Source: a virus
Length of the DNA: 64,000 bases
Virus record (IMG/VR): IMGVR_UViG_3300047289_000053
Span: 4,084-68,083 of that record
Strand: one strand, 5' to 3'
Positions 2,946 through 31,721 of the stretch are shown here, one piece after another; position 1 is the stretch's first letter, and each line of letters opens with the position of its first letter. Position numbers and translations under genes: made by a program. The notes beneath the pieces were generated by a model. That model searched no databases. It was not told the DNA's origin and worked only from the letters and a program-made list of their open reading frames with translations.

Positions 2946-2946
2946 T

Positions 2947-3306: not shown

Positions 3307-3328
3307 CTTTACAAAAAAAATATATATT

Positions 3329-3598: not shown

Positions 3599-3667
3599 TT
3601 TATTAATCACATCATCAGCAGTTATACTCCTCTGGCATTCAAATTGTCGAGGAGTATTTTTGTTTAC
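3572..3667 (-). pseudogene. Orphaned original 3' end of the glycosyltransferase gene
   Basis: Minus strand reads VNKNTPRQFECQRSITADDVINKLVLLKNFQ*, colinear with the GT C-terminus VHKGSDRMFECQKTITAEMVIEEIKKII*. Confidence 0.85.
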
Positions 3668-6922: not shown

Positions 6923-7018
6923 TTTAATATTATTATTGTGTATAATGATAATCCAAAATTACGTAATATTACGCCATAATAAAATATAATTAGTACTTTT
7001 ACAAAAAAATATAATACA

Positions 7019-7273
7019 ATGGATAAATTAACACAAGACGAGTTGGATCGTTTCAGAGCCGCTCATACAGAAATCAGAAATCTTCGCAACGCTTTAGCAG
7101 ATGCTGAGATTACAATTCACAATTCCAAAGTAGAGAAACAATCTATTTTAGCTCAGTTAGATACAGCTGGTACAACACACGTTGCTATCCAACAAGAACT
7201 ACACGCTAAGTACGGAGATATCACGATTGACTTTGCGACAGGAGAAATCAAGAATAAAGATGGTAATTCGTAA
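7019..7273 (+). CDS. Hypothetical coiled-coil protein
   Basis: ORF with A-rich start; ends YGDITIDFATGEIK. Confidence 0.65.
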   Translation: MDKLTQDELDRFRAAHTEIRNLRNALADAEITIHNSKVEKQSILAQLDTAGTTHVAIQQELHAKYGDITIDFATGEIKNKDGNS

Positions 7274-7478
7274 AATATCAGTTGGTGCAGACTACAAGAA
7301 TGCAATGAATTATATGCATAATCAAGTAGTCTTACAGGGTAACTATAGGATTCATTTGATTCGTCAGACCGAAGCAGGAGATATTGAAATCTACATTGAG
7401 TCTAGTGATGAGGTGGTCTTGTGGAAAAAGATTAATGGCAACATGCCATTCTTAATTGAATATAATATAGATTTCTAA
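7260..7478 (+). CDS. Conserved small phage protein preceding the GroES-like gene
   Basis: MVIRKISVGADYKNAMNY; overlaps the upstream stop and abuts the next gene. Confidence 0.65.
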   Translation: MVIRKISVGADYKNAMNYMHNQVVLQGNYRIHLIRQTEAGDIEIYIESSDEVVLWKKINGNMPFLIEYNIDF

Positions 7479-7479
7479 T

Positions 7480-8034
7480 ATGAAGTCCCCATTTTACTTT
7501 ATAGTGCAACCCCGTGATGGCAAGAGATATGACAACACGAGGGGAGAGCTCATTATTTCTACATCGAAAGAAGACCACCTTGCCACTATGCGTGAGGCTG
7601 TTGTTATCTCTACGCCTATTGGATACGAGGGTCCCGTTGAACCAGGTGATACGGTCATTGTGCATCACAATACTTTTAGGTTGTATTATGATATGCGTGG
7701 TAGAGAGAAGTCTGCTTGGAATTACTTCCGAGAGGACTTATACTTTATTGACGATCCATATGCATATAAGAAGCCTGGTGCTGATTGGATTGGTATTGGT
7801 CGCTACGTGTTCATCTCTCCTGTGGAGAATGACTACACAGGCATACTTACTGCAGACGCAGAGAAGCCTCTTGTAGGCACGATAAAGTATCCAAACGAAG
7901 AAGTACTAGCACTAGGATTAAAAGAGGGCGACACGGTCACGTTTGAGCCTGAGAGCGAGTATCCATTCTATATTGACGGTCAGAAAGTATACCGTATGTA
8001 TACTAAGAATCTAACAATTAAATTAGATGAATAG
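7480..8034 (+). CDS. GroES-like (co-chaperonin fold) protein, probably two tandem domains
   Basis: Two similar halves: FIVQP..LIIS..AVVIS.P..VEPGDTVIV and VFISP..GIL..GTIKY..LKEGDTVTF. Confidence 0.6.
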   Translation: MKSPFYFIVQPRDGKRYDNTRGELIISTSKEDHLATMREAVVISTPIGYEGPVEPGDTVIVHHNTFRLYYDMRGREKSAWNYFREDLYFIDDPYAYKKPGADWIGIGRYVFISPVENDYTGILTADAEKPLVGTIKYPNEEVLALGLKEGDTVTFEPESEYPFYIDGQKVYRMYTKNLTIKLDE

Positions 8035-8308
8035 AATAACAGAACTTAAGAAAAGAATTATTGAGTCAGGGTATAAGGCTGTTGAAGAATTAATTAAAGT
8101 TGCTGAAGAGAAAATCATTACCCATATGGATGACGACTTGTCTGCAGACAAACTTAAAAATGCCGCTGCAAGCAAGAAACTGGCAATACTTGATGCCTTT
8201 GAGATTCTTAAAAGAGTCGAGGAGGAGAATAATATTATTGAGGGAGTAGTTGGAAACTCTGCACCTACCAACCGTGGGTTTGCAGAACAAAGAGCAAAAG
8301 GTAAATGA
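8027..8308 (+). CDS. Putative terminase small subunit
   Basis: Helical 93-aa protein just upstream of TerL; call based on position. Confidence 0.5.
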   Translation: MNRITELKKRIIESGYKAVEELIKVAEEKIITHMDDDLSADKLKNAAASKKLAILDAFEILKRVEEENNIIEGVVGNSAPTNRGFAEQRAKGK

Positions 8309-8309
8309 T

Positions 8310-8828
8310 ATGGAAACTTGGAAAGATATAATTGGATACGAAGGTTTATACCAAGTGTCAAATATGGGAAATGTGAAGAGTTTGTCAAGAATTATTGACA
8401 GAGGTAGTTTACCAAGCAGACTTCAGAAAGAGAAATTAATGAAGAAGACTGTTAATAAGCAAGGATACCATGTTGTAAACTTGAGTAAAGATAAAAGACA
8501 GAAGTTACATAGTGTTCACTTTTTAGTTGCTTCTTGTTTTTTAGGAGATAGAAATGGGTTAGATACCAATCATATAGATAGAAATAAATCTAATAACTGC
8601 TTGTCAAATCTAGAGTATGTTTCTAGAAGAGAAAATACTTGTCACGGAAAATCAAGAAAACATTCCTTCCCAGGTATAACATTCAGGAGCAGAATAAAAA
8701 AATGGACAGCTAACCCTGTTTTCAATGGCAAAATTATTGAGTTAGGTTCGTTTGATAATCAAGACGATGCAATATCTTGCATTAAAAACTTTTACAAAGA
8801 AAATAACATTGTAAACAAATACGCATGA
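8310..8828 (+). CDS. NUMOD4-HNH homing endonuclease
   Basis: ETWKDIIGYEGLYQVSNMGNVKS (NUMOD4) and VHFLVA..NHIDRNKSNN..NLEYV..EN (HNH); likely start ATG 8310. Confidence 0.9.
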   Translation: METWKDIIGYEGLYQVSNMGNVKSLSRIIDRGSLPSRLQKEKLMKKTVNKQGYHVVNLSKDKRQKLHSVHFLVASCFLGDRNGLDTNHIDRNKSNNCLSNLEYVSRRENTCHGKSRKHSFPGITFRSRIKKWTANPVFNGKIIELGSFDNQDDAISCIKNFYKENNIVNKYA

Positions 8829-11038
8829 GTTTGTATAATGTGATTGATAATGTTGTACCACAAAAGATTCTTGATAAAAAAAACAACAAGAAAGAATGGG
8901 AATATGGATATGATCCTGAATATGACATTGTAATTATATCTAAAGATGGAACATTAGGTGAAGTATATGAAATACAAAATCTGAAAATCGGATTGCCTTT
9001 ATCTCCAGATAAGATAAATTACGAATACAACAAGTGGATAGTTAAAGATTTACCAAAAGAATTATCTAGAGTTAAAACTATTTTTGATTGGAATAGAAGG
9101 GATAATTCATTTAAGTCCAATTGGGTAGATTATATCGAAGAGGAGTTTAATCGCAGAGAGTATGGGTATTGGTTTATTAATAATAACCAAAAAACATACA
9201 TTACAGGTTCTCACTATATGTACTTACAGTGGTCTAAAACTGATGTTGGTCATCCTGATTTTCGAGAATCAAATAGAATATTTTTTATATTTTGGGCTGC
9301 TTGTATAGCAGATAACAGATGTTATGGAATGATTTATTTAAAAAATAGACGTTCCGGATTTTCGTTTATGGCTTCTTCTGAAGCAGTTAATATCGCTACA
9401 CTTGCCAAAGATGCTCGTATTGGTATGGTGTCCAAAACAGGTTCTGACTCAAAGAAAATGTTTACGGATAAAGTTGTTCCTATTGCAAATAATTATCCAT
9501 TCTTTTTTCAACCCGTAAGAGATGGTATGTCAACTCCTAAAACAGAGTTAGCATTCCGTGTACCAGCCTCTAAGATTACCAGAAAAAATATGGATCAGGA
9601 GACTGAGGATGACATTGATGGATTAGATACTACAATCGACTGGAAGAACACAGGAGATAATGCGTACGATGGTGAGAAATTGTTATATTTGATTGAGGAT
9701 GAGGCGGCTAAGTTGGAAAGGCCAATGAGTATTTTGAACGGATGGCGTGTGAGAAAAACATGTTTGCGTTTAGGGGCTAGAATCATTGGTAAATGTATGA
9801 TGGGGTCTACATCTAATGCCCTTGATAAGGGTGGTGATAATTATAAAAAATTATATTATGAATCAGATGTTAGGAAAAGAAATGCAAACGGTCAGACTAT
9901 TTCGGGTTTATACTCGTTATTTATTGAGATGGGTTATAACTTTGAGGGATATATTGATGAGTACGGTCACGCAGTCCTAGAGACACCGGAGAAGCCTGTG
10001 CGTTCAGCAGAAGGTACTTGGATAACACAAGGCGTAATTGAGTATTGGAATAATGAGGTTGCATCATTAAAGGCTAACCCTGATGCACTAAATGAATTCT
10101 ATCGTCAGTTCCCTAGAACAGAGTCACACGCTTTCCGTGATGAGACTAAGTCATCTTTGTTTAACTTGACTAAAATCTATCAGCAGATAGACTACAATGA
10201 CAGTTTAATTCAAGACCACGTCATAACACGTGGATATTTTCATTGGGCTAATGGGGAGAAGGATACCAAGGTAGTTTGGACACCCGATAAGAATGGTCGG
10301 TTCCTAGTATCTTGGATACCGGGGCCAGGCATCAATAATAATTATATTACTAAGAATGGGAATAGATACCCGGGTAATGAGCATATTGGTGCGTTTGGTT
10401 GTGACCCCTACGACATCTCAGGTGCGACCTTTGGTGGTTCAAACGGTTCGCTCCACGGGCTAACTAAGTTTAATATGACAGGGGCTCCATCTAATACATT
10501 CTTTTTGGAATACATTGCTCGTCCACAGACAGCAGAGATATTCTTCGAAGAAGTACTGATGGCTTGTGTATTCTATGGTATGCCTATTCTTTGTGAGAAC
10601 AACAAAGCACGTCTACTGTATCACTTTAAGAATAGAGGCTACCGTGGGTTCTCAATGAACCGTCCTGATAAGCACGCACATAAACTGTCATTCACAGAAA
10701 GAGAGATTGGTGGTATACCATCATCAAGTGAAGATATTAAGCAGGCACACGCCACAGCAATCGAGACATACATCGAGCGTTTTGTGGGATTAGACATGGA
10801 GGGCAACTACCGTCAGCCTGATGAAATAGGTGATATGCCGTTCAATAAGACACTTCAAGACTGGGCTAGATTCGACGTAAACGACAGAACTAAATTTGAT
10901 GCGTCAATTAGTTCGGGATATGCTATTATGGCAAATCAAAAGCACGTATATTTGCCTGAGAAAAAAGAGTCAAAAATAAGCATTAAATTTGCAACTTACG
11001 ATAACACTGGTTCCTTCAGTAGAATTAACAAGATATGA
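8825..11038 (+). CDS. terL: Terminase large subunit
   Basis: Walker A-like LKNRRSGFS, Walker B LIEDEAAK, motif III GSTSN, nuclease GCDPYD and C-terminal D residues; lies upstream of the portal. Confidence 0.88.
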   Translation: MSLYNVIDNVVPQKILDKKNNKKEWEYGYDPEYDIVIISKDGTLGEVYEIQNLKIGLPLSPDKINYEYNKWIVKDLPKELSRVKTIFDWNRRDNSFKSNWVDYIEEEFNRREYGYWFINNNQKTYITGSHYMYLQWSKTDVGHPDFRESNRIFFIFWAACIADNRCYGMIYLKNRRSGFSFMASSEAVNIATLAKDARIGMVSKTGSDSKKMFTDKVVPIANNYPFFFQPVRDGMSTPKTELAFRVPASKITRKNMDQETEDDIDGLDTTIDWKNTGDNAYDGEKLLYLIEDEAAKLERPMSILNGWRVRKTCLRLGARIIGKCMMGSTSNALDKGGDNYKKLYYESDVRKRNANGQTISGLYSLFIEMGYNFEGYIDEYGHAVLETPEKPVRSAEGTWITQGVIEYWNNEVASLKANPDALNEFYRQFPRTESHAFRDETKSSLFNLTKIYQQIDYNDSLIQDHVITRGYFHWANGEKDTKVVWTPDKNGRFLVSWIPGPGINNNYITKNGNRYPGNEHIGAFGCDPYDISGATFGGSNGSLHGLTKFNMTGAPSNTFFLEYIARPQTAEIFFEEVLMACVFYGMPILCENNKARLLYHFKNRGYRGFSMNRPDKHAHKLSFTEREIGGIPSSSEDIKQAHATAIETYIERFVGLDMEGNYRQPDEIGDMPFNKTLQDWARFDVNDRTKFDASISSGYAIMANQKHVYLPEKKESKISIKFATYDNTGSFSRINKI

Positions 11039-13467
11039 ACAAACCTCTTGGAATATTAATGCCAGATACCCAATTCCCTTCGCAGTTAGCGACTGATCAG
11101 GAAAAGGCATCATGGGAATATGGCTTAAGAATTGGGCAAAGCATTTCATATGAATGGTTTGCAAAGACAGGCAACAGTTGCCGATACTATTCACAATGGA
11201 TTGATTTCCACCGTATTAGACTATACGCTAGAGGTGAGCAACCAGTAGCTAAATATAAAAGCCAATTAGAAGTAGATGGCGATATGTCGCACATCAACCT
11301 TGATTGGACTCCTGTGCCAATTATCCCTAAGTTTGTTGACATCGTTGTAAATGGTATGCATGACCGATTATTTGAGGTTAAAGCATATGCACAAGATGCA
11401 ATGTCATCTAACAAACGATCTAAGTTTCAAGAGATGGTTGAGGCAGATATGATTGCCAAAGACTTATTAGTTCAAACTAAGCAAGAGTTTGGCATTGATG
11501 CATTCAATGTTCCTGAACAAGATTTGCCTGAGAACGACCAAGAGTTATCGTTATATATGCAGCTTAATTATAAGCCTGCAATTGAGATTGCTGAAGAGGA
11601 GGCAATCAATACTATTTTAGACTTAAACCATTATCAAGATATTCGCAAAAGGGTCGACTACGATATCACAACAATTGGCATAGGAGTAGTAAAGCACTCA
11701 TTTGTCCCAGGAACTGGTGTTCGTGTTGAGTATGTTGACCCCGCTAACATTGTTTATAGTTACACAGAATCCCCAACATTTGAAGATTGTTTCTATTGGG
11801 GAGAGGTAAAGCAAGTACCTATTACTGAACTAATTAAGATTAAGCCAGACATTACAAAAGAGGAGTTGGCAGAGATTCAGCAATTAGGAACAGCGTGGTA
11901 CAATTATTATGGAATTATGCGTCCTTACCGTAGCGACATCTTCAACAGAGATGTGGTTACGTTATTATATTTTAATTATAAAACTGACAAGACATTTGTT
12001 TACAAGAAGAAATATCTTGAGAACAATGGCGTTCGTGTAATCCAAAAAGATGAAAATTTCAACCCTCCTGAAGGAACTGAAGAAAGATTCGAAAGAATTG
12101 AGAAGAGAATTGACGTATGGTACGAAGGTATTATGGTACCTGGATCTCCTTATTTACTTAAGTGGGAGCTTGCTCGCAATATGGTTCGCCCTAAGTCTGC
12201 TTCTCAGTATGCGTTACCAAACTACATCGCTGTAGCACCAAGAATGTACAAAGGAATTGTTGAGTCATTGACTCGTCGTATGATTCCTTTTGCTGACTTA
12301 ATTCAAATGACCCATCTTAAATTACAACAAGTTCTACAACGTGTTGTGCCGGATGGTGTGTTTATCGATGCTGATGGTATCAATGAGGTTGACTTAGGAA
12401 CAGGTGGTGCTTACAATCCAGAAGATGCTCTTCGTTTGTATTTCCAAACGGGTAGTGTTATTGGACGTAGTATGACAACAGATGGTGATTTAAACCACGG
12501 CCGTATTCCTATCCAAGAACTTAATACTAATAGTGGCCAAGGAAAGATTACTGCATTAATTAATGCATACAATCAATACTTGAGTATGATACGTGATGTA
12601 ACAGGATTAAATGAAGCTCGTGACGGATCAACTCCTCATCCTGATGCATTAGTTGGTGTACAAAAACTTGCTGCATTAAATTCAAATACAGCAACTCGCC
12701 ATATCTTAGAAGGTAGTTTATTTATTACCCGTAAATTATCTGAGGCGTTATCGCTTCGTGTTGCTGATATCTTAGAATACTCTGACTTTAAAGAAGAGTT
12801 TACTATGCAAATTGGTAAGTATGCTGTTGGTCTTTTAGAAGAAATTAAAGACTTGTACTTACACGACTTTGGTATTTTCATTGAGGTTGCTCCTGATGAA
12901 GAAGAAAGAGCTCAATTAGAAGCTAACATTCAGGTCGCATTACAACGTGACCAAATATCGCTTGAAGACGCTATTGATATTCGTCAAATGAAAAATATTA
13001 AGTTAGCTAATGAGTTGCTTAAGATGAAGCGTAAGGATAAGCAGAAGAAAGATATGGAGAATGAGCAAGCTAAGATTCAAATGCAAACTCAAGGTAACAT
13101 TCAATCTTCTCAGGCAGCTGCTCAGTCTGCACTACAAAAAGTACAAGCAGAGGCTCAAGCTAAAGCACAACTTGCTGAGGCACAAATGCAGTTTGACATT
13201 CAGCGTATGCAAGCAGAAGCTCAAATTAAAGAACAACTTATGGCTGTTGAGTTTAACTATAACATGCAACTAAGAGGCATGGAAGTAGAAAAGGTTAAGC
13301 AGTTAGATATGGATAAAGAGAAAGCTAAAGACGATCGTACAAAACTTCAAGCTACTCAACAATCTAAGTTAATTGAACAACGTCAAAAAGACCTTCCAGC
13401 AATGAACTTCGAATCAGAAGAAGACTCACTAGATGGCTTTGATTTAGAGCAATTCAACCCAAGATAA
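11035..13467 (+). CDS. Portal protein
   Basis: 810 aa directly after TerL; P22/crAss-like portal layout with a long Q-rich C-terminal coiled coil. Confidence 0.8.
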   Translation: MNKPLGILMPDTQFPSQLATDQEKASWEYGLRIGQSISYEWFAKTGNSCRYYSQWIDFHRIRLYARGEQPVAKYKSQLEVDGDMSHINLDWTPVPIIPKFVDIVVNGMHDRLFEVKAYAQDAMSSNKRSKFQEMVEADMIAKDLLVQTKQEFGIDAFNVPEQDLPENDQELSLYMQLNYKPAIEIAEEEAINTILDLNHYQDIRKRVDYDITTIGIGVVKHSFVPGTGVRVEYVDPANIVYSYTESPTFEDCFYWGEVKQVPITELIKIKPDITKEELAEIQQLGTAWYNYYGIMRPYRSDIFNRDVVTLLYFNYKTDKTFVYKKKYLENNGVRVIQKDENFNPPEGTEERFERIEKRIDVWYEGIMVPGSPYLLKWELARNMVRPKSASQYALPNYIAVAPRMYKGIVESLTRRMIPFADLIQMTHLKLQQVLQRVVPDGVFIDADGINEVDLGTGGAYNPEDALRLYFQTGSVIGRSMTTDGDLNHGRIPIQELNTNSGQGKITALINAYNQYLSMIRDVTGLNEARDGSTPHPDALVGVQKLAALNSNTATRHILEGSLFITRKLSEALSLRVADILEYSDFKEEFTMQIGKYAVGLLEEIKDLYLHDFGIFIEVAPDEEERAQLEANIQVALQRDQISLEDAIDIRQMKNIKLANELLKMKRKDKQKKDMENEQAKIQMQTQGNIQSSQAAAQSALQKVQAEAQAKAQLAEAQMQFDIQRMQAEAQIKEQLMAVEFNYNMQLRGMEVEKVKQLDMDKEKAKDDRTKLQATQQSKLIEQRQKDLPAMNFESEEDSLDGFDLEQFNPR

Positions 13468-13477
13468 TTTTTATTAT

Positions 13478-13485
13478 TACTTTTG
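13478..13485 (+). promoter_or_regulatory. Bacteroidota -7 promoter element TACTTTTG
   Basis: Matches TAnnTTTG about 20 nt before ATG 13505. The same motif occurs at 16886, 22634, 23387, 52962, 53456, 53803, 56354, 57972 and 58721. Confidence 0.65.
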
Positions 13486-13504
13486 TGCAACTAAATTAAA
13501 TTAA

Positions 13505-14611
13505 ATGGATAATATTCAAGTAAAACTTGTAGACTTTGAAGAGAAGTCAGTGCAAGAAATCGAGCAACAGTTGCTTGAGGAGCACGAAGAAAAGACCGCT
13601 CCAATTGAGGAGATGGCTGCAGAATTAAGTGCAACTACCGAGGAAACTCAGGAAGTTATTGAAAGTCAGCCACAGTTTGGCGACAACGACGTTCTTTCAT
13701 ATTTAAAAACAAAGTTCAACAAGGAGGTAAACTCTTTGGATGAATTATTTACAGAACAACCACAGTCTCAACAGGAATTACTTCCTGAAGATGTAAATGC
13801 TTTCTTAAAATTCAAGAAAGAGACAGGACGTGGTTTAGAAGATTTCTATCGTGTTAACCAAGATTTTTCTAAGGTTAATCCAGAAAGACTTCTAGCTGAC
13901 TACATGCGTGAAACTAATCCTGATTTTGATGATGAGGATATCGCATTCGAATACGAATCAAAGTTTGGATACGATGAGGAGATGGATGACGAGAAAGAAA
14001 TTAAACGCAAGAAGTTAGCACTTAAAAAAGAACTTGGCAAGGCATCAAAGTACTTTGAAGAACAAAAGGAAAAATATAAAGCTCCCCTTGAGTCGAGGAT
14101 GGATGCTACTATTCCTGCTGAGGACAGAGAGGCTTTGGAATCTTACAAGCAATACATCAGCCAATCTGCTGCTATGCAGCAAGAGCAGGCTAAAAAGTCG
14201 GAGTACTTTATGAATAAGACAAACGAATTATTCTCTAATGAATTCAAAGGTTTTGATTTCAAAGTTGGAGATAAGGAAGTATCTTATAAACCAGGAACTC
14301 CAGAGCAGCTGAAAGCTCAACAAACAGATATTGCCAAATTCTTTAGCAACTTTGTTAACGAAGATGGATTTATTAAGGATGCTAAACAGTATCATAAAAC
14401 AATTGCTGCGGCAATGAACCCTGATGCAATGGCTAAGTTCTTTTATGACTTAGGCAAATCGGATGCAATCGATGACAGTGCACGTCAAAGTAAAAATATT
14501 GACATGAGCGTTAGAAATGCTCCACAAAACATTGAAAAAGGCGGGTTTAAAGTTACAGCGTTGGATAATGATCATGGTAGTGGACTTAGGATTAAATCAT
14601 TTAAAAACTAA
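13505..14611 (+). CDS. Putative capsid scaffolding protein
   Basis: Very acidic, helical, between portal and MCP. Confidence 0.6.
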   Translation: MDNIQVKLVDFEEKSVQEIEQQLLEEHEEKTAPIEEMAAELSATTEETQEVIESQPQFGDNDVLSYLKTKFNKEVNSLDELFTEQPQSQQELLPEDVNAFLKFKKETGRGLEDFYRVNQDFSKVNPERLLADYMRETNPDFDDEDIAFEYESKFGYDEEMDDEKEIKRKKLALKKELGKASKYFEEQKEKYKAPLESRMDATIPAEDREALESYKQYISQSAAMQQEQAKKSEYFMNKTNELFSNEFKGFDFKVGDKEVSYKPGTPEQLKAQQTDIAKFFSNFVNEDGFIKDAKQYHKTIAAAMNPDAMAKFFYDLGKSDAIDDSARQSKNIDMSVRNAPQNIEKGGFKVTALDNDHGSGLRIKSFKN

Positions 14612-14627
14612 AAACTAAAAAAAAACA

Positions 14628-16043
14628 ATGGCTGGATCAGTTCAAGCGTCCCCGGGTTATCAATTACAACCCTCGGCAGTAAAGGCAACATTGCCTACAA
14701 ACTACATTACTAACTTCAATTTCTTAAACCAGTATCTTCCTGATACTTACGAATCAGAATTTGAGCGTTATGGTAATCGTTCTATTGCATCTTTCTTACG
14801 TATGGTAGGTGCAGAATTACCTTCTAACTCTGACTTAATCAAATGGGCAGAGCAAGGTCGTTTACACACTAAGTATGTTAACTGTACTTCAGCTGCTGCT
14901 GTTGGAGCAGATACAGCTACTTGGACTGTTAACGATGCAAACGTAATCGTTAACTTCCGTGTTAACCAAACTGTATTCTTATCTGCTAACGCTGGTTCAG
15001 CTTCTGACAAAGCGGTTATCACTGCAGTAGATACAGCTGCTAACACTTTCACAGTTGCTTACTATGCTGGTGCTGGACAATCAATCGCAATCAATACAGC
15101 TTCAACTGCATTCGTTTACGGTTCTGAATTCACTAAGGGTTCATTAGGAATGGATGGTTCTCTTGAGTCTCAAGATATTTTCTTCGAGAACAAGCCAATC
15201 ATCATCAAAGACAAGTACACAGTATCAGGTTCTGATATGGCTCAAATCGGTTGGGTTGAAGTAACTTCTGAGAACGGTGCTACTGGTTACTTATGGTACA
15301 TCAAGTCTGAGCACGAAACTCGTTTACGTTTCGAAGACTACTTAGAGATGTCAATGGTTGAAGGTGTTCCTGCACAAGCTAACTCTGGTGCTTTACCTTA
15401 CTTAACTGTTGCAGCTTCTCAAGTACAACCTGGTGCTGCTGGTACTCAAGGTTTATTCAATGCAGTTGAGACTCGTGGTAACGTATGGAAAGGTGGTAAC
15501 CCAACTACTTTATCAGACTTCGATTCAATCATCCAACGTCTTGACAAGCAAGGAGCTATCCAAGAGAACGTGTTATTCGTTAACCGTAAATTCTCTTTCG
15601 ATATCAACGATATGTTAGCTGCACAAAACTCTTACGGAGCAGGTGGTACTTCATATGGTTTATTCGACAACAACGAGACTATGGCGTTAAACTTAGGTTT
15701 CACAGGCTTTAAGCGTGGATACGATTTCTACAAGACTGACTGGAAATACTTAAACGATGCAACTACTCGTGGTGGAATCGTAGGTGGAGCTATCAACGGT
15801 ATCTTGGTACCTGCAGGTTCTACTAACGTATACGATCAAATCTTAGGAAAGAATGCAAAACGTCCGTTCTTACACGTTCGTTACCGTGCTTCTGAAACTG
15901 AAGATCGTCGTTACAAAACTTGGATCACTGGTTCTGCTGGTGGTGCTCAAACAAGTTCATTAGATGCAATGGAGGTTAACTTCTTATCTGAGCGTGCTTT
16001 ATGTACTCTTGGTGCGAACAACTTCTTCATCTTCGAGAACTAG
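14628..16043 (+). CDS. Major capsid protein
   Basis: 471 aa after the scaffold gene; strongly biased codons (TTC/AAC/GGT/CGT); followed by a strong terminator. Confidence 0.8.
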   Translation: MAGSVQASPGYQLQPSAVKATLPTNYITNFNFLNQYLPDTYESEFERYGNRSIASFLRMVGAELPSNSDLIKWAEQGRLHTKYVNCTSAAAVGADTATWTVNDANVIVNFRVNQTVFLSANAGSASDKAVITAVDTAANTFTVAYYAGAGQSIAINTASTAFVYGSEFTKGSLGMDGSLESQDIFFENKPIIIKDKYTVSGSDMAQIGWVEVTSENGATGYLWYIKSEHETRLRFEDYLEMSMVEGVPAQANSGALPYLTVAASQVQPGAAGTQGLFNAVETRGNVWKGGNPTTLSDFDSIIQRLDKQGAIQENVLFVNRKFSFDINDMLAAQNSYGAGGTSYGLFDNNETMALNLGFTGFKRGYDFYKTDWKYLNDATTRGGIVGGAINGILVPAGSTNVYDQILGKNAKRPFLHVRYRASETEDRRYKTWITGSAGGAQTSSLDAMEVNFLSERALCTLGANNFFIFEN

Positions 16044-26096: not shown

Positions 26097-29000
26097 ATGG
26101 CAAAACAAAGATTAGTAAAAAAAGGTAGCCAATATGGTATCTTAGACGAAGCGTCTAACACAGTATTACCTATTTCAGAGAACATGAAACTTGTTCAAAA
26201 GCAGGGGCAATATGGTGTTCTTGATGGTGATTCTGTTATCCCTATTGATAACTTTTCTGAAACCATTACTGATTCAGACTTAGATATATTAAAAAAAAAA
26301 AATTCTACGGAATCCGTTGGTCAACCAACTCCAAAACCTACTTCATCGGTATCTCCAAAGATTCAAGGGAGTGGACTTGTGGCTTCTCCTGCAAAAGCAG
26401 GTAAGGAAGAAGTTGGAATGATTGATGACATTTGGAATTCATTCAAAGGAGCTGGTGCTAAAGCATTAGCTTCTATTGCTTCTGTTCCTCAGTTTGCACA
26501 AAATGCTGCTATAGATATCATGTCTAGTGTAACTGGACGTTCTAGTGATTTCAATAAATTACCATCAAATGTTAAGAAGCAAGTAAGAGATGCAATAGCA
26601 GGATCTCTTAGTGCAGCTACACCTACAGGTCGCTTTGCACAAGCATCTCAAGAAGCTACAGATTATCTTAATAAAAAATCTGAAGACATCTACAAGAAGA
26701 CTCGTCAAGAGGAGATTGATGTCGTAGATGAATTAGCTAAGTTTGGAGAAAACCCAAATGCGGAATCTATTAAAAAGGTTCTTTACCAAGGATTAAAAAC
26801 CACATTCGAATCTGCTCCTTATATGGCCATTGGTATGGCAAGTTTACCAGCTTTAGCAATCACTTCTGCTGCAGGTAAAAGAGAAGAGGATATTTCTAAA
26901 GAAGGAGATGTAGGTATTGGTAATCTATTAAATGCTGGTATATATGGTGCAGCTGAGGCTGTATTTGAAGGCACAACTAATAAGATTTTAAGAAAGGCTG
27001 CTAATTCCGCAGTCGGTAATCCTAAGGCTGCAAAAGCTGTTGCTGAAGGTTTTGTTAAATCTGTATTGAAAGATTTTGGTCAAGAAGCCACTTCTGAAGG
27101 AGCAACTACTGCTATTCAAGATTTATCAGACAGAATAACAAAAGGAGAAAACATACAAGATATAAATTATTATAAGTTAGCAAAAAATGTAGCTAACAGT
27201 GCTATACTCGGGGGTATATCAGGTGGAGGCATATCTCTTACTGCATCAACAGCAGGTGCCGCACGTAAATATGTGGCATCTAAAATAATGCCTAAAAATC
27301 AAATAGAGAAAATTAATAACAATACTAAAACAATTCAAAGTCTAAATCTTGAGCACGGAGAAGATGTTGATCCACGTGTAAACGAAATTGTTAATAAAAA
27401 AATAGATGAATTGGTAGCTGAGAATGAAGCTATCATTGCAGAAAATGAAAAGATTGCTGAGAATTTATCTGCTGATCAAATCAAACAAGTATTTGATATT
27501 GACGATAAATTAGAAGAAAACTATAATAGTGCAAAGTCTATTATTGACGATGCGGCTATGGATGATAATGCAAAGAAGTTATTATTAGATGATTTACTAA
27601 AACAACAAAATAACCTTAAACAAGAAAAAGATGCCATTCAAAAGCAAGCAACAAGTGAAATACCTGTACAGCCAGAAACCGGAATTAGCGGAGAAGTGGC
27701 GAAAGGAGAACCCCAAGCAGAACCTCAAGTCCCTACCGAAGAAGTTAAAGTCGAAGAAGTAACAACTCCTTCTGAAACAATTGAAGTATTTCATGGTGGA
27801 GATTTGCCTTCATTAGAAGAAGGTAGACCTTTGTACGTATCAGAAGATGCTAGTCAAGCGAATGAGTATGCAAAGATGTCTGGTGGAGAAGTATCAAAAT
27901 TCTTTTTAGACAAAAATAAAATAGCTAGCGAACAAGATGCTTTCGATATAATGGAAGAATTGGGGTTAGACTCATTTGGAAACTTCTTTGAACTTATTGA
28001 TCCTAGATTTGATGAGGCATTTTCTGAAGAAGACATAAAAAGAGTTTTTGACACATTAAAAGAAAGAGGATTTGAGGCGGTAAAATATACTGATATTGAT
28101 CAGAAAGATTTAAAGTCAGGTATTGAAAATATACTAGTTCTTGACGCCTCTAAATCACTTAAAACAGAACCAACTCCTACCACAGAAGTAAAAGAAGAAG
28201 TAATAGTTAGACCTGAACAAAAGGTAGAACAAGCTACTGCAGTTAAAAAAGGCATTGATGCTGTCAATAAGGCTGTAGAGCGTGGTAGACCTTTAAAGAA
28301 AGCAGTCGAAGGTGGTATTGCATTTATGCAAAAAACAATTGCCTATGAGCAAGCGGATGACGTTACTCGTGAGCAAATGCTTCGTGACATCAATAAGAAG
28401 TTTGGTGTAAAAGAAAAGAAGGCTCCATCCGTTAAAAAAGTATTAGGTAAAAAACCTGATATGATTTTAATTGATGAAATGGAATCAATAAAAAAACAAC
28501 TTAAAATAGAAGCAAAAGCTGCTAAGAAAGCATCTGATATAGCTACAAAAGAAGGTAAACAGATACTAAAGTCTACGGTTAAAGATATCAAACAAACAAG
28601 AAAGGATGTAATCAGTAAGTTAAAATCAATGATTACACGTGGTTCGTTAAGTAAAGCACAACAAAAATCATTATTAAATGCTTTAGAAAAAACAAATATA
28701 TTTAATCCTGTAATGCGTGAACGTATGTTTGAACGTATGCAGAAGATGTTTGAGCGTGCTGATTACAAGGATCGTATTAAAGAAGCAACTACTTTTAGAA
28801 ATAGAATTAAAAAGTTAGCTAAATCAGAAACACTACAGGCTTCGGTGTCTAATATGGCAAAAGACTTTTCAAAAGTTATACCAGACCTTACTGATGTAGA
28901 TAAGTATTTAGAGAAAGCAAGAGACGTTTATAATGCAATTAAAAACCCTTTAAGGGTAGCTGTTGTTATTGATGATGTTAATAAGTTTTCTGAAACTGAA

Positions 29001-31721
29001 TTAAAAAAACAAGAAGAGAAACTTAAAAATACTTTACTAGACCAATATGATTATTTGGTTGAAGATGGTCTTATTGATGCATCAATGAGTTTATCTGAAA
29101 TCCAAAAATATGTAATGGATGTAGAGAAAGGTCTTAAGCCTGATACAGAAGCTAATGAAGCCAAAATAAAAAATAACTTAACAGAGTTATTTGATTCTAT
29201 GAAAGAATCAGTTGATTCTATTTTAGAAGATGGATACAATCCTGTAACAACTGAAGAAGTTGAATTAGATGAATATACTAGACAATTGCTAAGTAATTAT
29301 TCTTCTATGGATATTGATAGAATGTCTATATCGGAGGCTTATAGAGCAACAGAGGCACTAGAAAATTACTTAGTAAATGGTATTGTTGATAACATGGAGT
29401 CAATGTACCGTGTTTACGAAGGAGCATTAAAGAATGCTAAATTAGCAAGTCAAGGAGTTGTAGCACAAAATTTAAAAAGATTTGGAATTTTAGGTAGATC
29501 TAATTTATACGCTAGATCCTGGGCTGCTAATATTTCACCATTAAAATCTGTTATTGATTTAATGTTTAGATCAAGAGAGATGGGTGCTAAATTCTTAAAA
29601 GAATCTGGACTTAGAGATATTGCAAATTCTTCTAGTAGAGCTAAAACAGAAACTCAAAATATCGATAAAGCATATGATGAGAAGTTTAGCAAAACAAAAC
29701 CTAATGGACAACCATTCTATTCGGCAGAAAATACCTACGAAAGAGGTATGTATGCTCATCTAAGAAGAACATTTGAAGGCACTACAGATGAAATAAACAA
29801 CGAGTTTAATAGACGCAAAAAACAAATTGTTGATACTATTGACAAGTTGATGAAATCTGGTGATGATAAATTAATTAATAGAGCAAAGGTATACCAAAAG
29901 GTATTTGATAAATTCAAAGATGCAAAAAACATCCAAGAGGTTGAAGACTCTATTGATGTAACTAATGCTAGTGCTGTAAAATGGTGGAATGCTATATTTG
30001 ATAAATACTATCCTGAAGTTAAAAAGATAGCGTCTTCTGTATATAATACTGTACTAGAGGATGATATAAATTATTCTCCTGATAATTATGAGAAGATATT
30101 AGAAGATAGTGTACCTGATGTGAATGAGGTTTCTACATATAGAATGGCATTCAACTTTTTGAATTCAGAGAAGTCGGGTACATTAATGAAGAATAATAGA
30201 CTTCAAGAATTGCCTAAGAATAGAGCAATGAATTTTGATTTTGATTTTAATAATTCATCTGCTTTAGGTAAAATGTTAGTAGATGTTAGGACAGCTCCTT
30301 ATGTACAACAATACAGAGGATTTTCTAACGCACCTAGTTTTGATGAGATATTCAAAGATCCTAAAGACAGAGATGTTATTAAGGAGAAAATGAATTGGTA
30401 TGTTAACGAGGTTCGTTCTAAAAATTATTCTACTGCTAATGTTAGAGCAAAAGATGCTGAAAAAATATTTAGAGAAATATCCCGTATTGGTACTGGTCGT
30501 GCATTAGGTTCTGCTTTATCAATATTTAAGCAATTCTCTACAGCAATGATAAACACTTCTATTAATTTAGCGAATAATCCTAAAGCATTGATCCAAGGAC
30601 TTTCAACTATTAAAGATAAAAGTGCAATGAAATGGCTTGAGAATTCAGGTTATGCTATTGCTAATAGAGGATTAGAATCTCAAACAGCAATTGAATCAGC
30701 AGATAGGATATTGAACCAAACAAATCCAGAAGCGGTAAACAAACTTGTTGGATCAACTCAAAAAATACTTAATACAATTGAGAAAGTAAACCAATTCTAT
30801 TTAAAATCATTCTTACAGAATGGTGACGTATTTGGTGCTCGTGCTTCCTGGATGGCTTATTACTTAAATAAGTTGGATAGTATGGGTATTAATACTTCTA
30901 ATATTGATTGGTCTAAACATAAATTGGTTACGGAAGCTGCTGATTATGCTCAAGATAAGGTTGATCTTCAGCAAAACGTATCAGAATCGGCAATGTTGGG
31001 TAAACTATTAAATAGTAAAAATCCATACATTAATATGGGTAAATCGCTATTTATTCCTTTTAGTAGTTTTGTTTTTAATGCTAAAGATAAAATAGCTACA
31101 GACTTAACTATTTTATCATCCAATGCTAATGATAAAGAAAAATTAGATGCAATAAAATCTTTATCAGGTACAGCCGTTGAAATGATGATATTTGAAGTTA
31201 TGGGTAGCTCAATTACTTTGGGAATTGAATTATTAGCTAACTCTTTACTTGGATATGATACTGATGAGGATGAGTTGAGAGAAAAGTTAGATAAAGGATT
31301 ACAGAAATCTACAACTAGAATGTTTACTGATTCGTTCTCTCCAATGCCAAACTGGGGTGATAAGATAATGGTATCATTAGCTAATAAAGCACTTAATTTC
31401 TTGCAAAAAAATATAGATGAAGAGGACCGTAAATTATTTTATGCTTATGAAGCTAAAGGTGATTTCAATAATATAATGGGGTTAATTGGAGGAATTCCTG
31501 AAATTGCACTAAAGCCTTTAGTTAATTTTGGATTCACATTAGATAAGATTTTATCTGATACCTATGTGGATGATTTTGGGAATGAAGTTCAATTCTCTGA
31601 TGAAGATAAAGAAAAACTAGTTGGAATACTAGCCGCTCAACTAGCCGCACCATTCTTACCTACAGAGTACGGAAGAACATTAGACAAAATGGAACAGAAA
31701 ATAGAAAAAGAAGCTAAATAA
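26097..31721 (+). CDS. Large internal virion/ejection protein with an inserted ADP-ribosyltransferase-like (polyvalent-type) domain
   Basis: 1874 aa, mostly helical, with a Gly/Ala-rich membrane-like segment; VFHG..LYVSED...A.EYA..GFEAV domain at about 27770-28150. Confidence 0.65.
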   Translation: MAKQRLVKKGSQYGILDEASNTVLPISENMKLVQKQGQYGVLDGDSVIPIDNFSETITDSDLDILKKKNSTESVGQPTPKPTSSVSPKIQGSGLVASPAKAGKEEVGMIDDIWNSFKGAGAKALASIASVPQFAQNAAIDIMSSVTGRSSDFNKLPSNVKKQVRDAIAGSLSAATPTGRFAQASQEATDYLNKKSEDIYKKTRQEEIDVVDELAKFGENPNAESIKKVLYQGLKTTFESAPYMAIGMASLPALAITSAAGKREEDISKEGDVGIGNLLNAGIYGAAEAVFEGTTNKILRKAANSAVGNPKAAKAVAEGFVKSVLKDFGQEATSEGATTAIQDLSDRITKGENIQDINYYKLAKNVANSAILGGISGGGISLTASTAGAARKYVASKIMPKNQIEKINNNTKTIQSLNLEHGEDVDPRVNEIVNKKIDELVAENEAIIAENEKIAENLSADQIKQVFDIDDKLEENYNSAKSIIDDAAMDDNAKKLLLDDLLKQQNNLKQEKDAIQKQATSEIPVQPETGISGEVAKGEPQAEPQVPTEEVKVEEVTTPSETIEVFHGGDLPSLEEGRPLYVSEDASQANEYAKMSGGEVSKFFLDKNKIASEQDAFDIMEELGLDSFGNFFELIDPRFDEAFSEEDIKRVFDTLKERGFEAVKYTDIDQKDLKSGIENILVLDASKSLKTEPTPTTEVKEEVIVRPEQKVEQATAVKKGIDAVNKAVERGRPLKKAVEGGIAFMQKTIAYEQADDVTREQMLRDINKKFGVKEKKAPSVKKVLGKKPDMILIDEMESIKKQLKIEAKAAKKASDIATKEGKQILKSTVKDIKQTRKDVISKLKSMITRGSLSKAQQKSLLNALEKTNIFNPVMRERMFERMQKMFERADYKDRIKEATTFRNRIKKLAKSETLQASVSNMAKDFSKVIPDLTDVDKYLEKARDVYNAIKNPLRVAVVIDDVNKFSETELKKQEEKLKNTLLDQYDYLVEDGLIDASMSLSEIQKYVMDVEKGLKPDTEANEAKIKNNLTELFDSMKESVDSILEDGYNPVTTEEVELDEYTRQLLSNYSSMDIDRMSISEAYRATEALENYLVNGIVDNMESMYRVYEGALKNAKLASQGVVAQNLKRFGILGRSNLYARSWAANISPLKSVIDLMFRSREMGAKFLKESGLRDIANSSSRAKTETQNIDKAYDEKFSKTKPNGQPFYSAENTYERGMYAHLRRTFEGTTDEINNEFNRRKKQIVDTIDKLMKSGDDKLINRAKVYQKVFDKFKDAKNIQEVEDSIDVTNASAVKWWNAIFDKYYPEVKKIASSVYNTVLEDDINYSPDNYEKILEDSVPDVNEVSTYRMAFNFLNSEKSGTLMKNNRLQELPKNRAMNFDFDFNNSSALGKMLVDVRTAPYVQQYRGFSNAPSFDEIFKDPKDRDVIKEKMNWYVNEVRSKNYSTANVRAKDAEKIFREISRIGTGRALGSALSIFKQFSTAMINTSINLANNPKALIQGLSTIKDKSAMKWLENSGYAIANRGLESQTAIESADRILNQTNPEAVNKLVGSTQKILNTIEKVNQFYLKSFLQNGDVFGARASWMAYYLNKLDSMGINTSNIDWSKHKLVTEAADYAQDKVDLQQNVSESAMLGKLLNSKNPYINMGKSLFIPFSSFVFNAKDKIATDLTILSSNANDKEKLDAIKSLSGTAVEMMIFEVMGSSITLGIELLANSLLGYDTDEDELREKLDKGLQKSTTRMFTDSFSPMPNWGDKIMVSLANKALNFLQKNIDEEDRKLFYAYEAKGDFNNIMGLIGGIPEIALKPLVNFGFTLDKILSDTYVDDFGNEVQFSDEDKEKLVGILAAQLAAPFLPTEYGRTLDKMEQKIEKEAK
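26291..26404 (+). other. A12 slippery run followed by a 33-codon -1 frame extension
   Basis: TTA AAA AAA AAA AAT; the -1 frame reads FYGIRWSTNSKTYFIGISKDSREWTCGFSCKSR* (stop 26402-26404). Confidence 0.5.
27631..27762 (+). CDS. Nested (+1 frame) small basic protein MPFKSKQQVKYLYSQKPELAEKWRKENPKQNLKSLPKKLKSKK
   Basis: ATG at 27631 after an A-rich leader, TAA at 27760. Resembles small stand-alone phage proteins beginning MPFKS..Q.RYLY...PE.A.RW. Confidence 0.7.
   Translation: MPFKSKQQVKYLYSQKPELAEKWRKENPKQNLKSLPKKLKSKK

What the first reader, a model, noticed from the sequence alone, without database searches (positions are those of the whole stretch)
27631..27762. Complete small gene nested in the +1 frame of the giant ejection-protein gene
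Seen: an ATG...TAA 43-aa ORF (MPFKSKQQVKYLYSQKPELAEKWRKENPKQNLKSLPKKLKSKK) with an A-rich leader like other starts in this genome. The host frame over the same bases is a featureless acidic linker (DAIQKQATSEIPVQPETGISGEVAKGEPQAEPQ). From recall, it resembles small basic phage proteins starting MPFKS..Q.RYLY...PE.A.RW that occur as stand-alone genes, and it matches the style of the basic mini-proteins at 56.4-58.9 kb. Inference: the linker is a by-product of an embedded gene that standard annotation misses, possibly a DNA-condensing or co-ejected peptide.
Basis: partly seen in the sequence, partly recalled or inferred. Interest (0 to 1): 0.9.

Follow-up and report, generated by a model that had tools for sequence, protein, structure and literature searches.

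The report
Hidden small gene inside giant phage gene
A 43-codon gene for a small, very basic protein is written one base out of step inside a 1874-codon phage virion-protein gene, and many related phages keep it under strong protein-level selection although its function is still unknown.

Summary
Window 27631-27762 (+) is an ATG-to-TAA 43-codon ORF in the +1 frame of the 1874-codon ORF 26097-31721.

The ORF alone is not beyond chance: 19 same-strand alternative-frame ATG ORFs of 43 aa or more lie inside the window's long ORFs. Homology and selection make the case.
- An HMM built only from 30 stand-alone small phage ORFs hits it at E = 3.9e-14. The next best of 1652 six-frame segments is 0.7.
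- Among loci picked through a distant part of the giant protein, 60 of 71 carry the ORF. It is always inside the giant ORF and always +1.
- In those loci, dN/dS is 0.075 in the nested frame and 3.3 in the host frame.

The host frame there is an unconstrained acidic linker that is only kept open.

The peptide belongs to a very large uncurated phage family, 3644 clusters. It has an invariant M-P-F-K-S N-terminal two-helix module. This module occurs stand-alone, as the N-terminus of varied proteins, or nested.

Function is inferred only: probably a head-interior or DNA-associated basic peptide. At least five lineages have lost it.

The scan found the same thing earlier on other DNA (e1-6001903, e1-6176189). 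I found no paper describing it.

The parts
27631..27762 (+). Nested small gene: 43 codons plus TAA. The product has an N-terminal two-helix module (M-P-F-K-S..Q..YLY..P..A..W) followed by a Lys-rich tail.
   Evidence: ORF and translation. Homology to stand-alone ORFs: E = 3.9e-14. Conserved in 80 of 80 peptide-picked loci and 60 of 71 host-picked loci. dN/dS 0.075. AlphaFold2 model with helices 6-15 and 17-26 and a disordered tail, mean pLDDT 74.
27611..27630 (+). A-rich, G-poor leader before the nested ATG. Presumed Shine-Dalgarno-independent initiation region.
   Evidence: A 0.60 and G 0.10, against A 0.34 and G 0.22 for 645 internal ATG contexts. Resembles the 41 gene starts of the window, none of which has an SD motif. 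In 56 distinct homologous leaders the bases differ, but A-richness and lack of G from about -20 to -1 are kept. Translation itself was not tested.
26097..31721 (+). Host gene: 1874-codon giant virion or polyvalent-type protein gene, read in frame 0.
   Evidence: Single open frame. Lies in the late or structural block after terminase, portal, a 471-aa capsid-position protein and a 1377-aa virion structural protein. No Pfam family for this copy. A homologous giant ORF (L094) carries ART-PolyVal PF18760, E = 1.6e-15.
27630..27764 (+). Host-frame linker (DAIQKQATSEIPVQPETGISGEVAKGEPQAEPQVPTEEVKVEE) that overlies the nested gene. It is kept open but not conserved as protein in its own right.
   Evidence: Host-frame amino-acid identity is 0.538 against 0.825 in the nested frame. 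There are 0 stops in the host frame in 75 distinct blocks, against stops in 64 of 75 in the third frame. Apparent host dN/dS is 3.27. In L095 the stretch is replaced by an unrelated linker while the flanks stay 88% identical.

Best explanation
Window 27631-27762 is a real protein-coding gene, wholly embedded in the +1 frame of the giant virion (polyvalent-type) protein gene.

Shown:
- The nested frame is under strong purifying selection at the protein level.
- The host frame over the same bases is only kept free of stops and otherwise drifts. It is a disordered acidic linker.
- The peptide belongs to a very large phage family that also exists as stand-alone genes. It is therefore an old gene lying inside a linker, not a chance ORF.

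Inferred:
- It is translated by internal initiation at its own ATG on the late mRNA of the giant gene. This would use the A-rich, Shine-Dalgarno-free type of leader that all genes of this phage have.
- The product is a 37-residue two-helix mini-domain with an invariant N-terminus (M-P-F-K-S), plus a polycationic tail.

More weakly inferred (my odds about 0.35): the module takes the peptide into the head interior or onto the packaged DNA. The Lys-rich tail would neutralise DNA, and the peptide may leave with the DNA at ejection. The reasons:
- The same module is the N-terminus of head-internal or ejection-type proteins.
- In sister lineages the gene is nested in the gene that sits between portal and capsid genes.

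The confidence figure below refers to the core claim, a real and selected nested coding gene. It does not refer to the function.
For: 1. Homology.
- tblastn finds the first 23-26 residues at the starts of small ORFs in unrelated phages. These ORFs are 35, 36 and 73 aa and have basic tails.
- An HMM of 30 distinct stand-alone peptides scores the nested ORF at E = 3.9e-14. The next best of 1652 six-frame segments of the window is 0.7.
- A profile search of 1.84 billion representatives gives 3644 clusters at E <= 1e-3. The match almost always covers residues 1-40.

2. Conservation of the arrangement.
- In 80 of 80 peptide-picked loci the ORF is intact (41-66 aa) and +1 inside an open span of 762 to 3339 aa.
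- In the host-picked set, found with Q[IL][KR]LEA[KR]AA far downstream, 60 of 71 loci with a complete upstream part have it. It is always inside and always +1. One more has a divergent copy, and 10 have none.

3. Selection (host-picked set, 50 distinct sequences).
- Pairwise differences at nested codon positions 1/2/3 are 0.140/0.061/0.333.
- NG86 dN/dS is 0.075 in the nested frame and 3.27 in the host frame.

4. Control block of the same giant genes.
- Host positions 1/2/3 are 0.264/0.205/0.599 and dN/dS is 0.17.
- The +1 frame has stops in 41 of 47 sequences.

5. The nested stretch is the conservation peak of the whole giant protein. Ten of 80 host proteins show no blastp similarity to the window's at all, yet carry the peptide at 65-79% identity.

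6. Independent population data.
- All 5 listed variants inside the ORF are nested-frame third positions.
- 22 of 35 variants outside it are host third positions.
- Contigs of other phages align only to about 27618-27770.

7. Start context.

8. Links to the head interior.
- The gene is nested at aa 42-68 of a 289-410-aa ORF in 8 loci.
- In L228 that ORF lies between the portal and the capsid-position gene. It is 39% identical to window 13505-14611.
- The module is fused N-terminally to Phage_Mu_F, to a 1477-aa SLT protein and to EncFtn-like and other domains.
Against: There is no direct evidence of translation: no ribosome profiling and no peptide data. The RNA-library contigs that cover the stretch do not show transcription, let alone translation.

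The gene is not universal.
- 10 of 71 host-picked relatives lack it.
- None of their 10 whole records has a family member at E <= 1. Four of these records are at least 99% complete.
- Absence needs at least 5 changes on the host-protein tree.
- In L095 the gene body was swapped for another linker.
So it is dispensable in some backgrounds.

A few database proteins join the upstream part of the giant protein in frame to the peptide (P0031, P0225). This keeps a frameshift-fusion reading alive at a low level.

Against the functional part:
- No curated family or solved structure informs it.
- Stand-alone copies are not always in structural modules. The P-RSP2 copy sits among small genes of unknown function, and FlowerPower gp48 sits next to a holin.
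- The cargo domains fused to the module are very mixed: cupin, NUDIX, P-loop, ParB-like. That fits any general N-terminal adaptor.

The first, larger locus set was picked by the peptide itself and is biased. The host-picked set was seeded from loci that have the gene.
Confidence: 0.88

Rival explanations
1. The basic peptide is not made from its own ATG. It is made as the C-terminal end of a truncated giant protein, through programmed +1 ribosomal frameshifting or transcriptional slippage just upstream. The product would be the N-terminal third of the giant protein with a basic tail.
For: P0031 (1075 aa, a cluster of 3 members) and P0225 (539 aa) are database proteins in which the upstream part of a giant protein runs in frame into M-P-F-K-S... 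and ends at the peptide's stop. The leader is an A-rich stretch.
Against: - Met1 is invariant in every family member. It is the true N-terminus of the stand-alone proteins.
- The +1 frame is closed by a stop 0-24 codons upstream of the ATG in all 80 peptide-picked loci.
- The sequence in that short space is not conserved, and no shared slippery motif is seen in 56 distinct leaders.
- 62 of 62 host-picked copies are out of frame with the host.
- The in-frame forms are few: 5 of 86 longer relatives have the module at the C-terminus. P0031 shares a 90% cluster with a 3577-aa member, which fits an indel or an assembly error.
Confidence: 0.04
2. The ORF is a fossil. A once stand-alone small gene was swallowed when two neighbouring genes fused into the giant gene, and it is no longer expressed. 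The conservation seen reflects constraint on DNA or RNA (a structure, a binding site) or on the host protein.
For: Stand-alone homologues show that the family predates the nesting. The gene has been lost at least five times, and whole records of 10 relatives lack it.
Against: - Substitutions follow the 3 > 1 > 2 pattern of the nested frame. dN/dS is 0.075 at a dS of about 1.1, that is, after saturation of silent sites.
- Host third positions are the least variable, the opposite of host-protein constraint.
- Tail length varies (41-66 aa) while the frame stays open and basic in 80 of 80 loci.
- The nesting persists in giant genes of loci with 33 to 64% G+C.
- An RNA or DNA element would not conserve amino-acid class while letting third positions vary.
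Confidence: 0.05
3. Chance ORF. An E/Q/P-rich linker read one base later gives a Lys-rich open frame for compositional reasons, and the resemblance to small phage proteins is low-complexity noise.
For: - 19 comparable alternative-frame ORFs exist in the window.
- Acidic linkers do give K-rich +1 frames without any N-terminal module. L147 shows this, as does the replaced linker of L095, which leaves a 62-codon open basic +1 frame.
Against: - E = 3.9e-14 to an HMM of stand-alone ORFs, carried by the non-repetitive N-terminal module.
- Invariant M1 P2 F3 K4 S5 Q8 P17 A20 and the L-P motif are shared by nested and stand-alone forms.
- Selection statistics.
Confidence: 0.01

Closest known systems
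Rz/Rz1 spanin genes of phage lambda (and T7 18.5/18.7). Recalled from established knowledge; also named by earlier scan note e1-6001903.
   Same: A small gene lies wholly embedded in the +1 frame of a larger gene on the same strand. It has its own start codon, and both frames stay open.
   Different: - Rz1 is a secreted lipoprotein with a signal peptide and lipobox, and its product binds the product of its host gene. The peptide here is hydrophilic and polycationic, with no signal or lipobox in its sequence.
- The host here is a 1874-aa virion protein, and the overlapped host segment is an unconstrained linker.
- The embedded family also occurs widely as stand-alone genes and as N-terminal modules.
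Overprinted genes of phiX174-type microviruses (B in A, E in D, K across A/C). Recalled.
   Same: Out-of-frame coding of a small protein inside another gene of a phage.
   Different: - Those genes are thought to have arisen de novo inside constrained genes of tiny genomes. Here the genome is 68 kb, so packing pressure is not an obvious reason.
- The nested gene is the older, widespread partner, and the host frame is the unconstrained one.
phrog_1375 (PHROGs, function unknown)
   Same: The only library family that touches the peptide: E = 0.0066, residues 3-42 on profile 17-59 of 70. Two relatives also hit it, the C75C1 stand-alone ORF (E = 0.0047) and the L139 nested ORF (E = 0.047).
   Different: The hits are weak and partial. 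Five other relatives give no hit. The family carries no function.
Pfam DUF3008 (PF11450)
   Same: A small basic family with a KSKAQQ-like start (the motif is recalled). The protein atlas lists a cluster in which 15% of members carry it as the nearest named neighbour, score 0.85.
   Different: No Pfam hit at E <= 1 for the peptide or for 8 relatives. Treated as a lead only.
N-terminal capsid-targeting sequences of T4 internal proteins, cargo-loading peptides of encapsulins, and the basic helix-turn-helix coat-binding end of P22 scaffolding protein (all recalled)
   Same: A short terminal module shared by otherwise unrelated proteins of the head interior. Here the module heads Phage_Mu_F, SLT-bearing giant proteins, EncFtn-like and other proteins. 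It is predicted as a basic two-helix hairpin.
   Different: This is functional analogy only. No sequence or fold match was found and no binding was shown.
Polyvalent proteins of phages (Iyer et al. 2017, PMC5512222), for the host gene
   Same: A giant multi-domain virion-type protein. A homologue carries ART-PolyVal.
   Different: In the passages returned for my search terms, the paper has 0 occurrences of 'overlapping' and no mention of an out-of-frame gene. The window's own copy has no Pfam hit.

Membership tests
MPFKS-module small phage proteins (uncurated; overlaps phrog_1375) | Significant profile match to members that are stand-alone genes | tested here: met
   An HMM of 30 distinct stand-alone peptides gives E = 3.9e-14 and 49.6 bits. 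The next best window segment is 0.7.
MPFKS-module small phage proteins (uncurated; overlaps phrog_1375) | Invariant N-terminus M-P-F-K-S, then Q8, P17, A20 and a later L-P motif | tested here: met
   All are present in P0001. The same columns are invariant in nested (A1, A4) and broad (A5) alignments.
MPFKS-module small phage proteins (uncurated; overlaps phrog_1375) | Short members end in a basic tail | tested here: met
   P0001 ends in LPKKLKSKK. In 55 short members, the tails average K+R 0.34 and D+E 0.07.
Out-of-frame embedded phage genes (Rz1-in-Rz type arrangement) | Wholly inside a larger ORF, same strand, other frame | tested here: met
   The same +1 relation holds in all 80 peptide-picked loci, all 62 host-picked copies and all 34 nested broad-family loci.
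Out-of-frame embedded phage genes (Rz1-in-Rz type arrangement) | Purifying selection acting on the embedded frame itself | tested here: met
   dN/dS 0.075 in the nested frame against 3.27 in the host frame. Control block. Population variants.
Out-of-frame embedded phage genes (Rz1-in-Rz type arrangement) | The embedded product is actually translated | not testable with these tools
   Only the start context could be examined. RNA-library contigs do not show translation.
Spanins (Rz1-like outer-membrane subunit) | Signal peptide with lipobox Cys | tested here: not met
   The 43-aa sequence has no Cys and no hydrophobic leader. It is not a spanin.
Pfam DUF3008 | Match to PF11450 at or near the gathering score | tested here: not met
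   No Pfam family at E <= 1 for P0001 or for 8 relatives.
Programmed frameshift product | Conserved slippery site, and an open +1 frame reaching back from the peptide into the host frame | tested here: not met
   A +1-frame stop lies 0-24 codons upstream in 80 of 80 loci. No conserved motif appears in 56 leaders.
Polyvalent proteins (host gene) | Giant protein carrying effector domains such as ART-PolyVal or zincin | tested here: inconclusive
   P0002 has no Pfam hit. The homologous giant ORF of L094 has ART-PolyVal at E = 1.6e-15. The ART-like stretch noted in e1-6181921 was not tested by me.

The most novel reading that the evidence does not exclude
The M-P-F-K-S module is a general head-interior address tag of tailed phages. 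It would be a roughly 37-residue basic two-helix domain that docks proteins to the inside of the procapsid or to the DNA being packaged, so that they are delivered with the genome.

Phages attach it to many cargoes: Mu-F-type head proteins, SLT-bearing ejection proteins, nucleases, kinases, NUDIX and ferritin-like domains.

The minimal form, the tag plus a poly-Lys tail, is a co-packaged DNA counter-ion. It has been parked repeatedly, out of frame, in disordered linkers of head-interior protein genes (the giant polyvalent gene, or the gene between portal and capsid genes). There it would be made from the same late mRNA in step with them.
Probability: 0.25. Interest if true: 0.9.

Novelty: new variant of a known kind. 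Interest (0 to 1): 0.78.

Why it matters
Embedded out-of-frame genes are textbook curiosities of tiny phages and of the spanin pair. Here one sits in a 68-kb phage, where space is not obviously limiting. It is retained across giant genes whose own proteins have diverged to 24-35% identity or beyond recognition, in loci from 33 to 64% G+C.

Three points follow.
- The overlapped partner is an unconstrained linker. That gives a clean natural case of how a disordered segment can host a second gene at little cost. It also reverses the usual polarity, since the nested gene is the old one.
- The family is very large (3644 clusters at 50% identity). It has no curated model and is unannotated in several deposited phage genomes. 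A profile for it would therefore add a gene to many phage annotations.
- Its invariant N-terminus on very varied cargo proteins makes a concrete and testable candidate for a packaging or delivery tag. If true, that would be useful for loading proteins into phage heads.

The phage group is abundant in freshwater metagenomes. Near-identical DNA is held by runs of 13 studies, two of which may be the source.

Tried and rejected
I could not see how gene callers placed the 16 called peptides on their contigs. I used the search for related loci instead.
- The 32-sequence host alignment A2 was too diverse for a collection scan. The 14-sequence subset A3 worked.
- Megablast of the giant gene against deposited phages found no match. 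tblastn of the giant protein found only Maribacter phage Panino, aa 111-350 at 27.7% identity.
- tblastn with a broad-family member (P0020) found only seven Streptomyces phage records. No cultured phage with a nested copy, and hence no virion proteome, was found.
- Pfam and PHROGs gave no informative family for the peptide or its relatives. Ten longer members gave only a cupin.
- Foldseek against BFVD returned only uncharacterised family members, none at E <= 0.001. I did not search PDB with the 43-residue model, because such a small helical hairpin gives meaningless matches.
- Complex prediction of the 471-aa capsid-position protein (A6) with the peptide (A4) gave no verdict: score 0.00 and controls not run. 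This says nothing either way.
- The 471-aa protein has no sequence relative in the PDB. Its identity as major capsid protein rests on position and on a PHROG 'virion structural protein' hit.
- Lead from e1-6188559 (in-frame FKSKSQ linkers in polyvalent proteins): no in-frame copy of the module lies inside any giant ORF of my 284 sources. In-frame N-terminal fusions to giant proteins do exist in the protein database.
- L147's K-rich +1 stretch was considered as a relic of the gene. I rejected it as compositional, because it has no N-terminal module.
- Microvirus idea: several 4-6-kb contigs carrying the gene looked like microvirus genomes by size. L228 and L177 proved to be fragments of tailed phages, with a portal and a tail sheath respectively.
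- RNA-library runs X19 and X20 hold parts of the stretch only as contigs. This is no evidence of transcription, and uncovered parts mean nothing.
- The genome-contig scan found 40 loci, all in metagenome-assembled genomes of many phyla. The best is a Chitinophagaceae MAG at 94%. Binning of phage contigs is unreliable, so I name no host from it.
- Literature: searches for 'MPFKS', overlapping genes in phages, embedded or out-of-frame small proteins and small genes in phage genomes listed nothing on this gene. I saw only listings for those papers.
- Of PMC5512222 I saw the listing and six passages.
- The first tree run timed out and was repeated with FastTree. Long branches make some placements unsure.
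Full report
THE OBSERVATION

It lies in the +1 frame of a single 1874-codon ORF, 26097-31721. The host frame over the same bases is the acidic stretch DAIQKQATSEIPVQPETGISGEVAKGEPQAEPQ....

An ORF of this size is not remarkable in itself. The window (37% G+C) holds 19 same-strand alternative-frame ATG ORFs of 43 aa or more inside its long ORFs. Everything therefore depends on homology and comparative evidence.

SETTING

The window is bases 4084-68083 of a 68,083-base IMG/VR virus record rated 100% complete. That record holds only this one copy of the family.

The giant gene follows these genes:
- a terminase (phrog_6681);
- a portal (phrog_6547);
- a 368-aa gene;
- a 471-aa capsid-position gene (phrog_13704);
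- a 1377-aa virion structural protein.

None of 41 presumed gene starts has a Shine-Dalgarno-like motif. Their leaders are A-rich and G-poor (A 0.49, G 0.07). The nested ATG has the same kind of leader (A 0.60, G 0.10), matched by only 1.9% of 645 internal ATGs.

Near-identical DNA occurs in freshwater metagenome runs of 13 studies, two of which are possible sources.

HOMOLOGY TO STAND-ALONE GENES

tblastn against deposited phages matched residues 1-23/26 to the very starts of small ORFs. Reading them out gave the following:
- a 35-aa unannotated ORF in phage C75C1;
- a 36-aa unannotated ORF in Synechococcus phage S-CBS2;
- the 73-aa gp48 of Streptomyces phage FlowerPower;
- an annotated 39-aa gene in phage 023Pt_psg01.

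All begin M-P-F/Y-K-S, continue ..Q.[KR][YF][LM]...P..A..[WF], and end in a basic tail.

A profile of nested forms (A4) searched against 1.84 billion representative proteins gave 3644 clusters at E <= 1e-3 and 236 at <= 1e-10. The match was almost always at residues 1-40.

Lengths of the best 150:
- 68 are 70 aa or shorter;
- 27 are 71-100 aa;
- 36 are 101-200 aa;
- 19 are longer than 200 aa;
- 125 start MPF or MPY.

As a clean test I built an HMM from 30 distinct stand-alone peptides only. I scored all 1652 six-frame segments of 20 aa or more in the window. The nested ORF scores E = 3.9e-14 and the runner-up 0.7.

No curated family covers it. Pfam gives nothing at E <= 1 and PHROGs gives only weak hits to phrog_1375.

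CONSERVATION OF THE NESTING

A scan of IMG/VR with the close-family alignment A1 found at least 366 relatives, and the best 80 were kept. In 80 of 80:
- the ORF is intact (41-66 aa);
- 78 start M-P-F-K-S/G and two start one codon later;
- it lies in the +1 frame of an open span of 762 to 3339 aa, with many spans cut by the locus end;
- the +1 frame is closed 0-24 codons upstream.

The host proteins are only 24-35% identical to the window's in their flanks. Ten show no blastp similarity at all. Often the only host-frame match is the nested stretch itself, which is the conservation peak of the whole protein.

This set was picked by the peptide and is biased. I therefore made a second set, picked through a host-protein block about 230 residues downstream of the nested gene in the window and up to about 1500 downstream in relatives. 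The pattern was Q[IL][KR]LEA[KR]AA. There were 127 relatives, of which 80 were kept.

Of 71 loci with the whole upstream part of the giant ORF:
- 60 carry the ORF at E < 1e-3, all inside and all +1;
- one has a divergent copy (E = 0.0044);
- ten have none.

SELECTION

In the host-picked close family (54 loci, 50 distinct sequences, 37 ungapped codons), one search gives:
- mean pairwise differences of 0.140, 0.061 and 0.333 at nested codon positions 1, 2 and 3;
- nested position 2 is host position 3, and it is the least variable;
- NG86 dN/dS of 0.075 in the nested frame (dS about 1.1) and 3.27 in the host frame;
- with all 62 copies over 27 codons, the values are 0.118 and 2.19.

The peptide-picked set gives the same picture: 0.165/0.079/0.361, amino-acid identity 0.825 nested against 0.538 host. 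No host-frame stop occurs in 75 distinct blocks, while the third frame has stops in 64 of 75.

A control block of the same giant genes behaves normally. Host positions are 0.264/0.205/0.599, dN/dS is 0.17, and the +1 frame has stops in 41 of 47.

Contigs of four public runs laid on the stretch add independent data:
- all 5 listed variants inside the ORF are nested-frame third positions;
- outside it, 22 of 35 are host third positions;
- several contigs of other phages align only from about 27618-27630 to 27750-27770 and run on unlike sequence on both sides.

Conclusion for this part: the nested frame is the one under protein-level purifying selection. The host frame is merely kept open.

THE WIDER FAMILY

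A scan with a broad alignment (A5) kept 80 further loci. They classify as follows:
- 26 nested in giant ORFs, with spans of 1000 aa or more and locus G+C from 0.33 to 0.64;
- 8 nested at aa 42-68 of a 289-410-aa ORF;
- 37 stand-alone ORFs of 100 aa or fewer;
- 3 N-terminal modules of longer proteins;
- 6 ambiguous, mostly G+C-rich.

In all 34 nested cases the relation is again +1. Some of the distant giant hosts are recognisably homologous to the window's (6 of 22 by the A2 profile, 7 by blastp).

In L228 the 383-aa host lies between a portal of the window's family and a capsid-position gene of the window's family. It is 39% identical (E = 6e-56) to window 13505-14611. The nested ORF sits in its non-homologous acidic N-terminal part. 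So within one phage supergroup the small gene sits in a disordered part of either of two genes of the head module.

Among 86 longer relatives, 80 have the module at the N-terminus. It is joined to the following domains:
- Phage_Mu_F;
- an SLT domain in a 1477-aa protein;
- Hva1_TUDOR in 1218- and 1554-aa proteins;
- DUF5661;
- a ParB-like nuclease;
- P-loop domains;
- cupin;
- NUDIX plus DUF6321;
- an EncFtn-like domain.

Five have the module C-terminal after an in-frame upstream part.

LOSS

The ten host-picked relatives without the gene have no family member anywhere in their records at E <= 1. Four of those records are at least 99% complete.

On a FastTree tree of the host C-terminal part (73 rows; the 7 upstream-cut loci without a hit were left out), absence needs at least 5 changes.

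L095 shows how one loss happened. Its flanks are 88% identical in protein to L088. From 22 bases into the nested ORF, however, the sequence is replaced by an unrelated linker and only ATGCCG remains. The giant protein thus needs a linker there, not this linker, and the small gene is dispensable in some backgrounds.

STRUCTURE AND FUNCTION

AlphaFold2 on A4 predicts helices 6-15 and 17-26 and a disordered basic tail, with mean pLDDT 74. BFVD holds only uncharacterised relatives.

Function is therefore an inference from association:
- the invariant extreme N-terminus;
- the very mixed cargo behind it, including head-internal and ejection-type proteins;
- the nesting in genes of the head module;
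- the polycationic tail.

Points against this are listed in the Against line. The main ones are the non-structural neighbourhoods of some stand-alone copies and the lack of any direct evidence.

COMPARISON AND NOVELTY

The arrangement is of the Rz1-in-Rz kind, but the peptide is no spanin because it has no Cys and no signal. It differs from classical overprinting in that the nested gene is the old, widespread partner and the host frame is the free one.

Four literature searches and the passages seen of the polyvalent-protein paper show no description of it. Supplements were closed.

Earlier notes of this scan report the same nested gene on two other genomes (e1-6001903, with a follow-up that confirmed it, and e1-6176189). 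These are not independent evidence.

VERDICT

It is a real, selected nested gene of a large uncurated phage family, and its function is still open.

Noticed in passing
window 57264-57536 (+): A 90-aa basic ORF in the cluster of mini-proteins is a clear DUF6321 member (E = 2.2e-25). DUF6321 also occurs fused behind the MPFKS module plus NUDIX in database proteins P0253 and P0256.
   Followed up: partly
window 57681-57971 (+) and L002 2687-3001: A 96-aa basic ORF is 41% identical (E = 3e-14) to S-CBS2 gp045. That gene ends exactly where S-CBS2's unannotated stand-alone MPFKS ORF begins. Small basic phage genes seem to travel together.
   Followed up: partly
L001 2998-3105; L002 3001-3111; L246 about 2501-2578: The deposited genomes of phage C75C1, Synechococcus phage S-CBS2 and Prochlorococcus phage P-RSP2 have no annotated gene at the place where a stand-alone family member (or, for P-RSP2, the tblastn match) lies.
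   Followed up: partly
L228 2336-3487 with 2448-2567; also L178, L181, L199, L202, L208, L218, L226: In a sister group with the same portal and capsid-position families, the small gene is nested near the 5' end of the gene between them (a scaffold-position gene), not in a giant gene.
   Followed up: partly
L094 (host ORF 2270-13720, aa 2405-2531): A 3817-aa homologue of the giant protein that lacks the nested gene carries an ART-PolyVal domain (E = 1.6e-15).
   Followed up: no
window, all gene starts: None of 41 presumed gene starts has a Shine-Dalgarno-like motif. Leaders are A/T-rich with 7% G. This fits a host with SD-independent initiation such as Bacteroidota, but the host was not established.
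   Followed up: partly
database proteins P0031 (1075 aa) and P0225 (539 aa): In a few metagenome contigs the upstream part of the giant protein is in frame with the small ORF and ends at its stop. This could be an indel, an assembly error or a real split of the giant gene.
   Followed up: no
window 14628-16043 (+): The 471-aa capsid-position protein has more than 8000 relatives at E <= 1e-10, and the best 120 are 79-99% identical. This is a very abundant and uniform freshwater phage group without a solved or named capsid protein.
   Followed up: no
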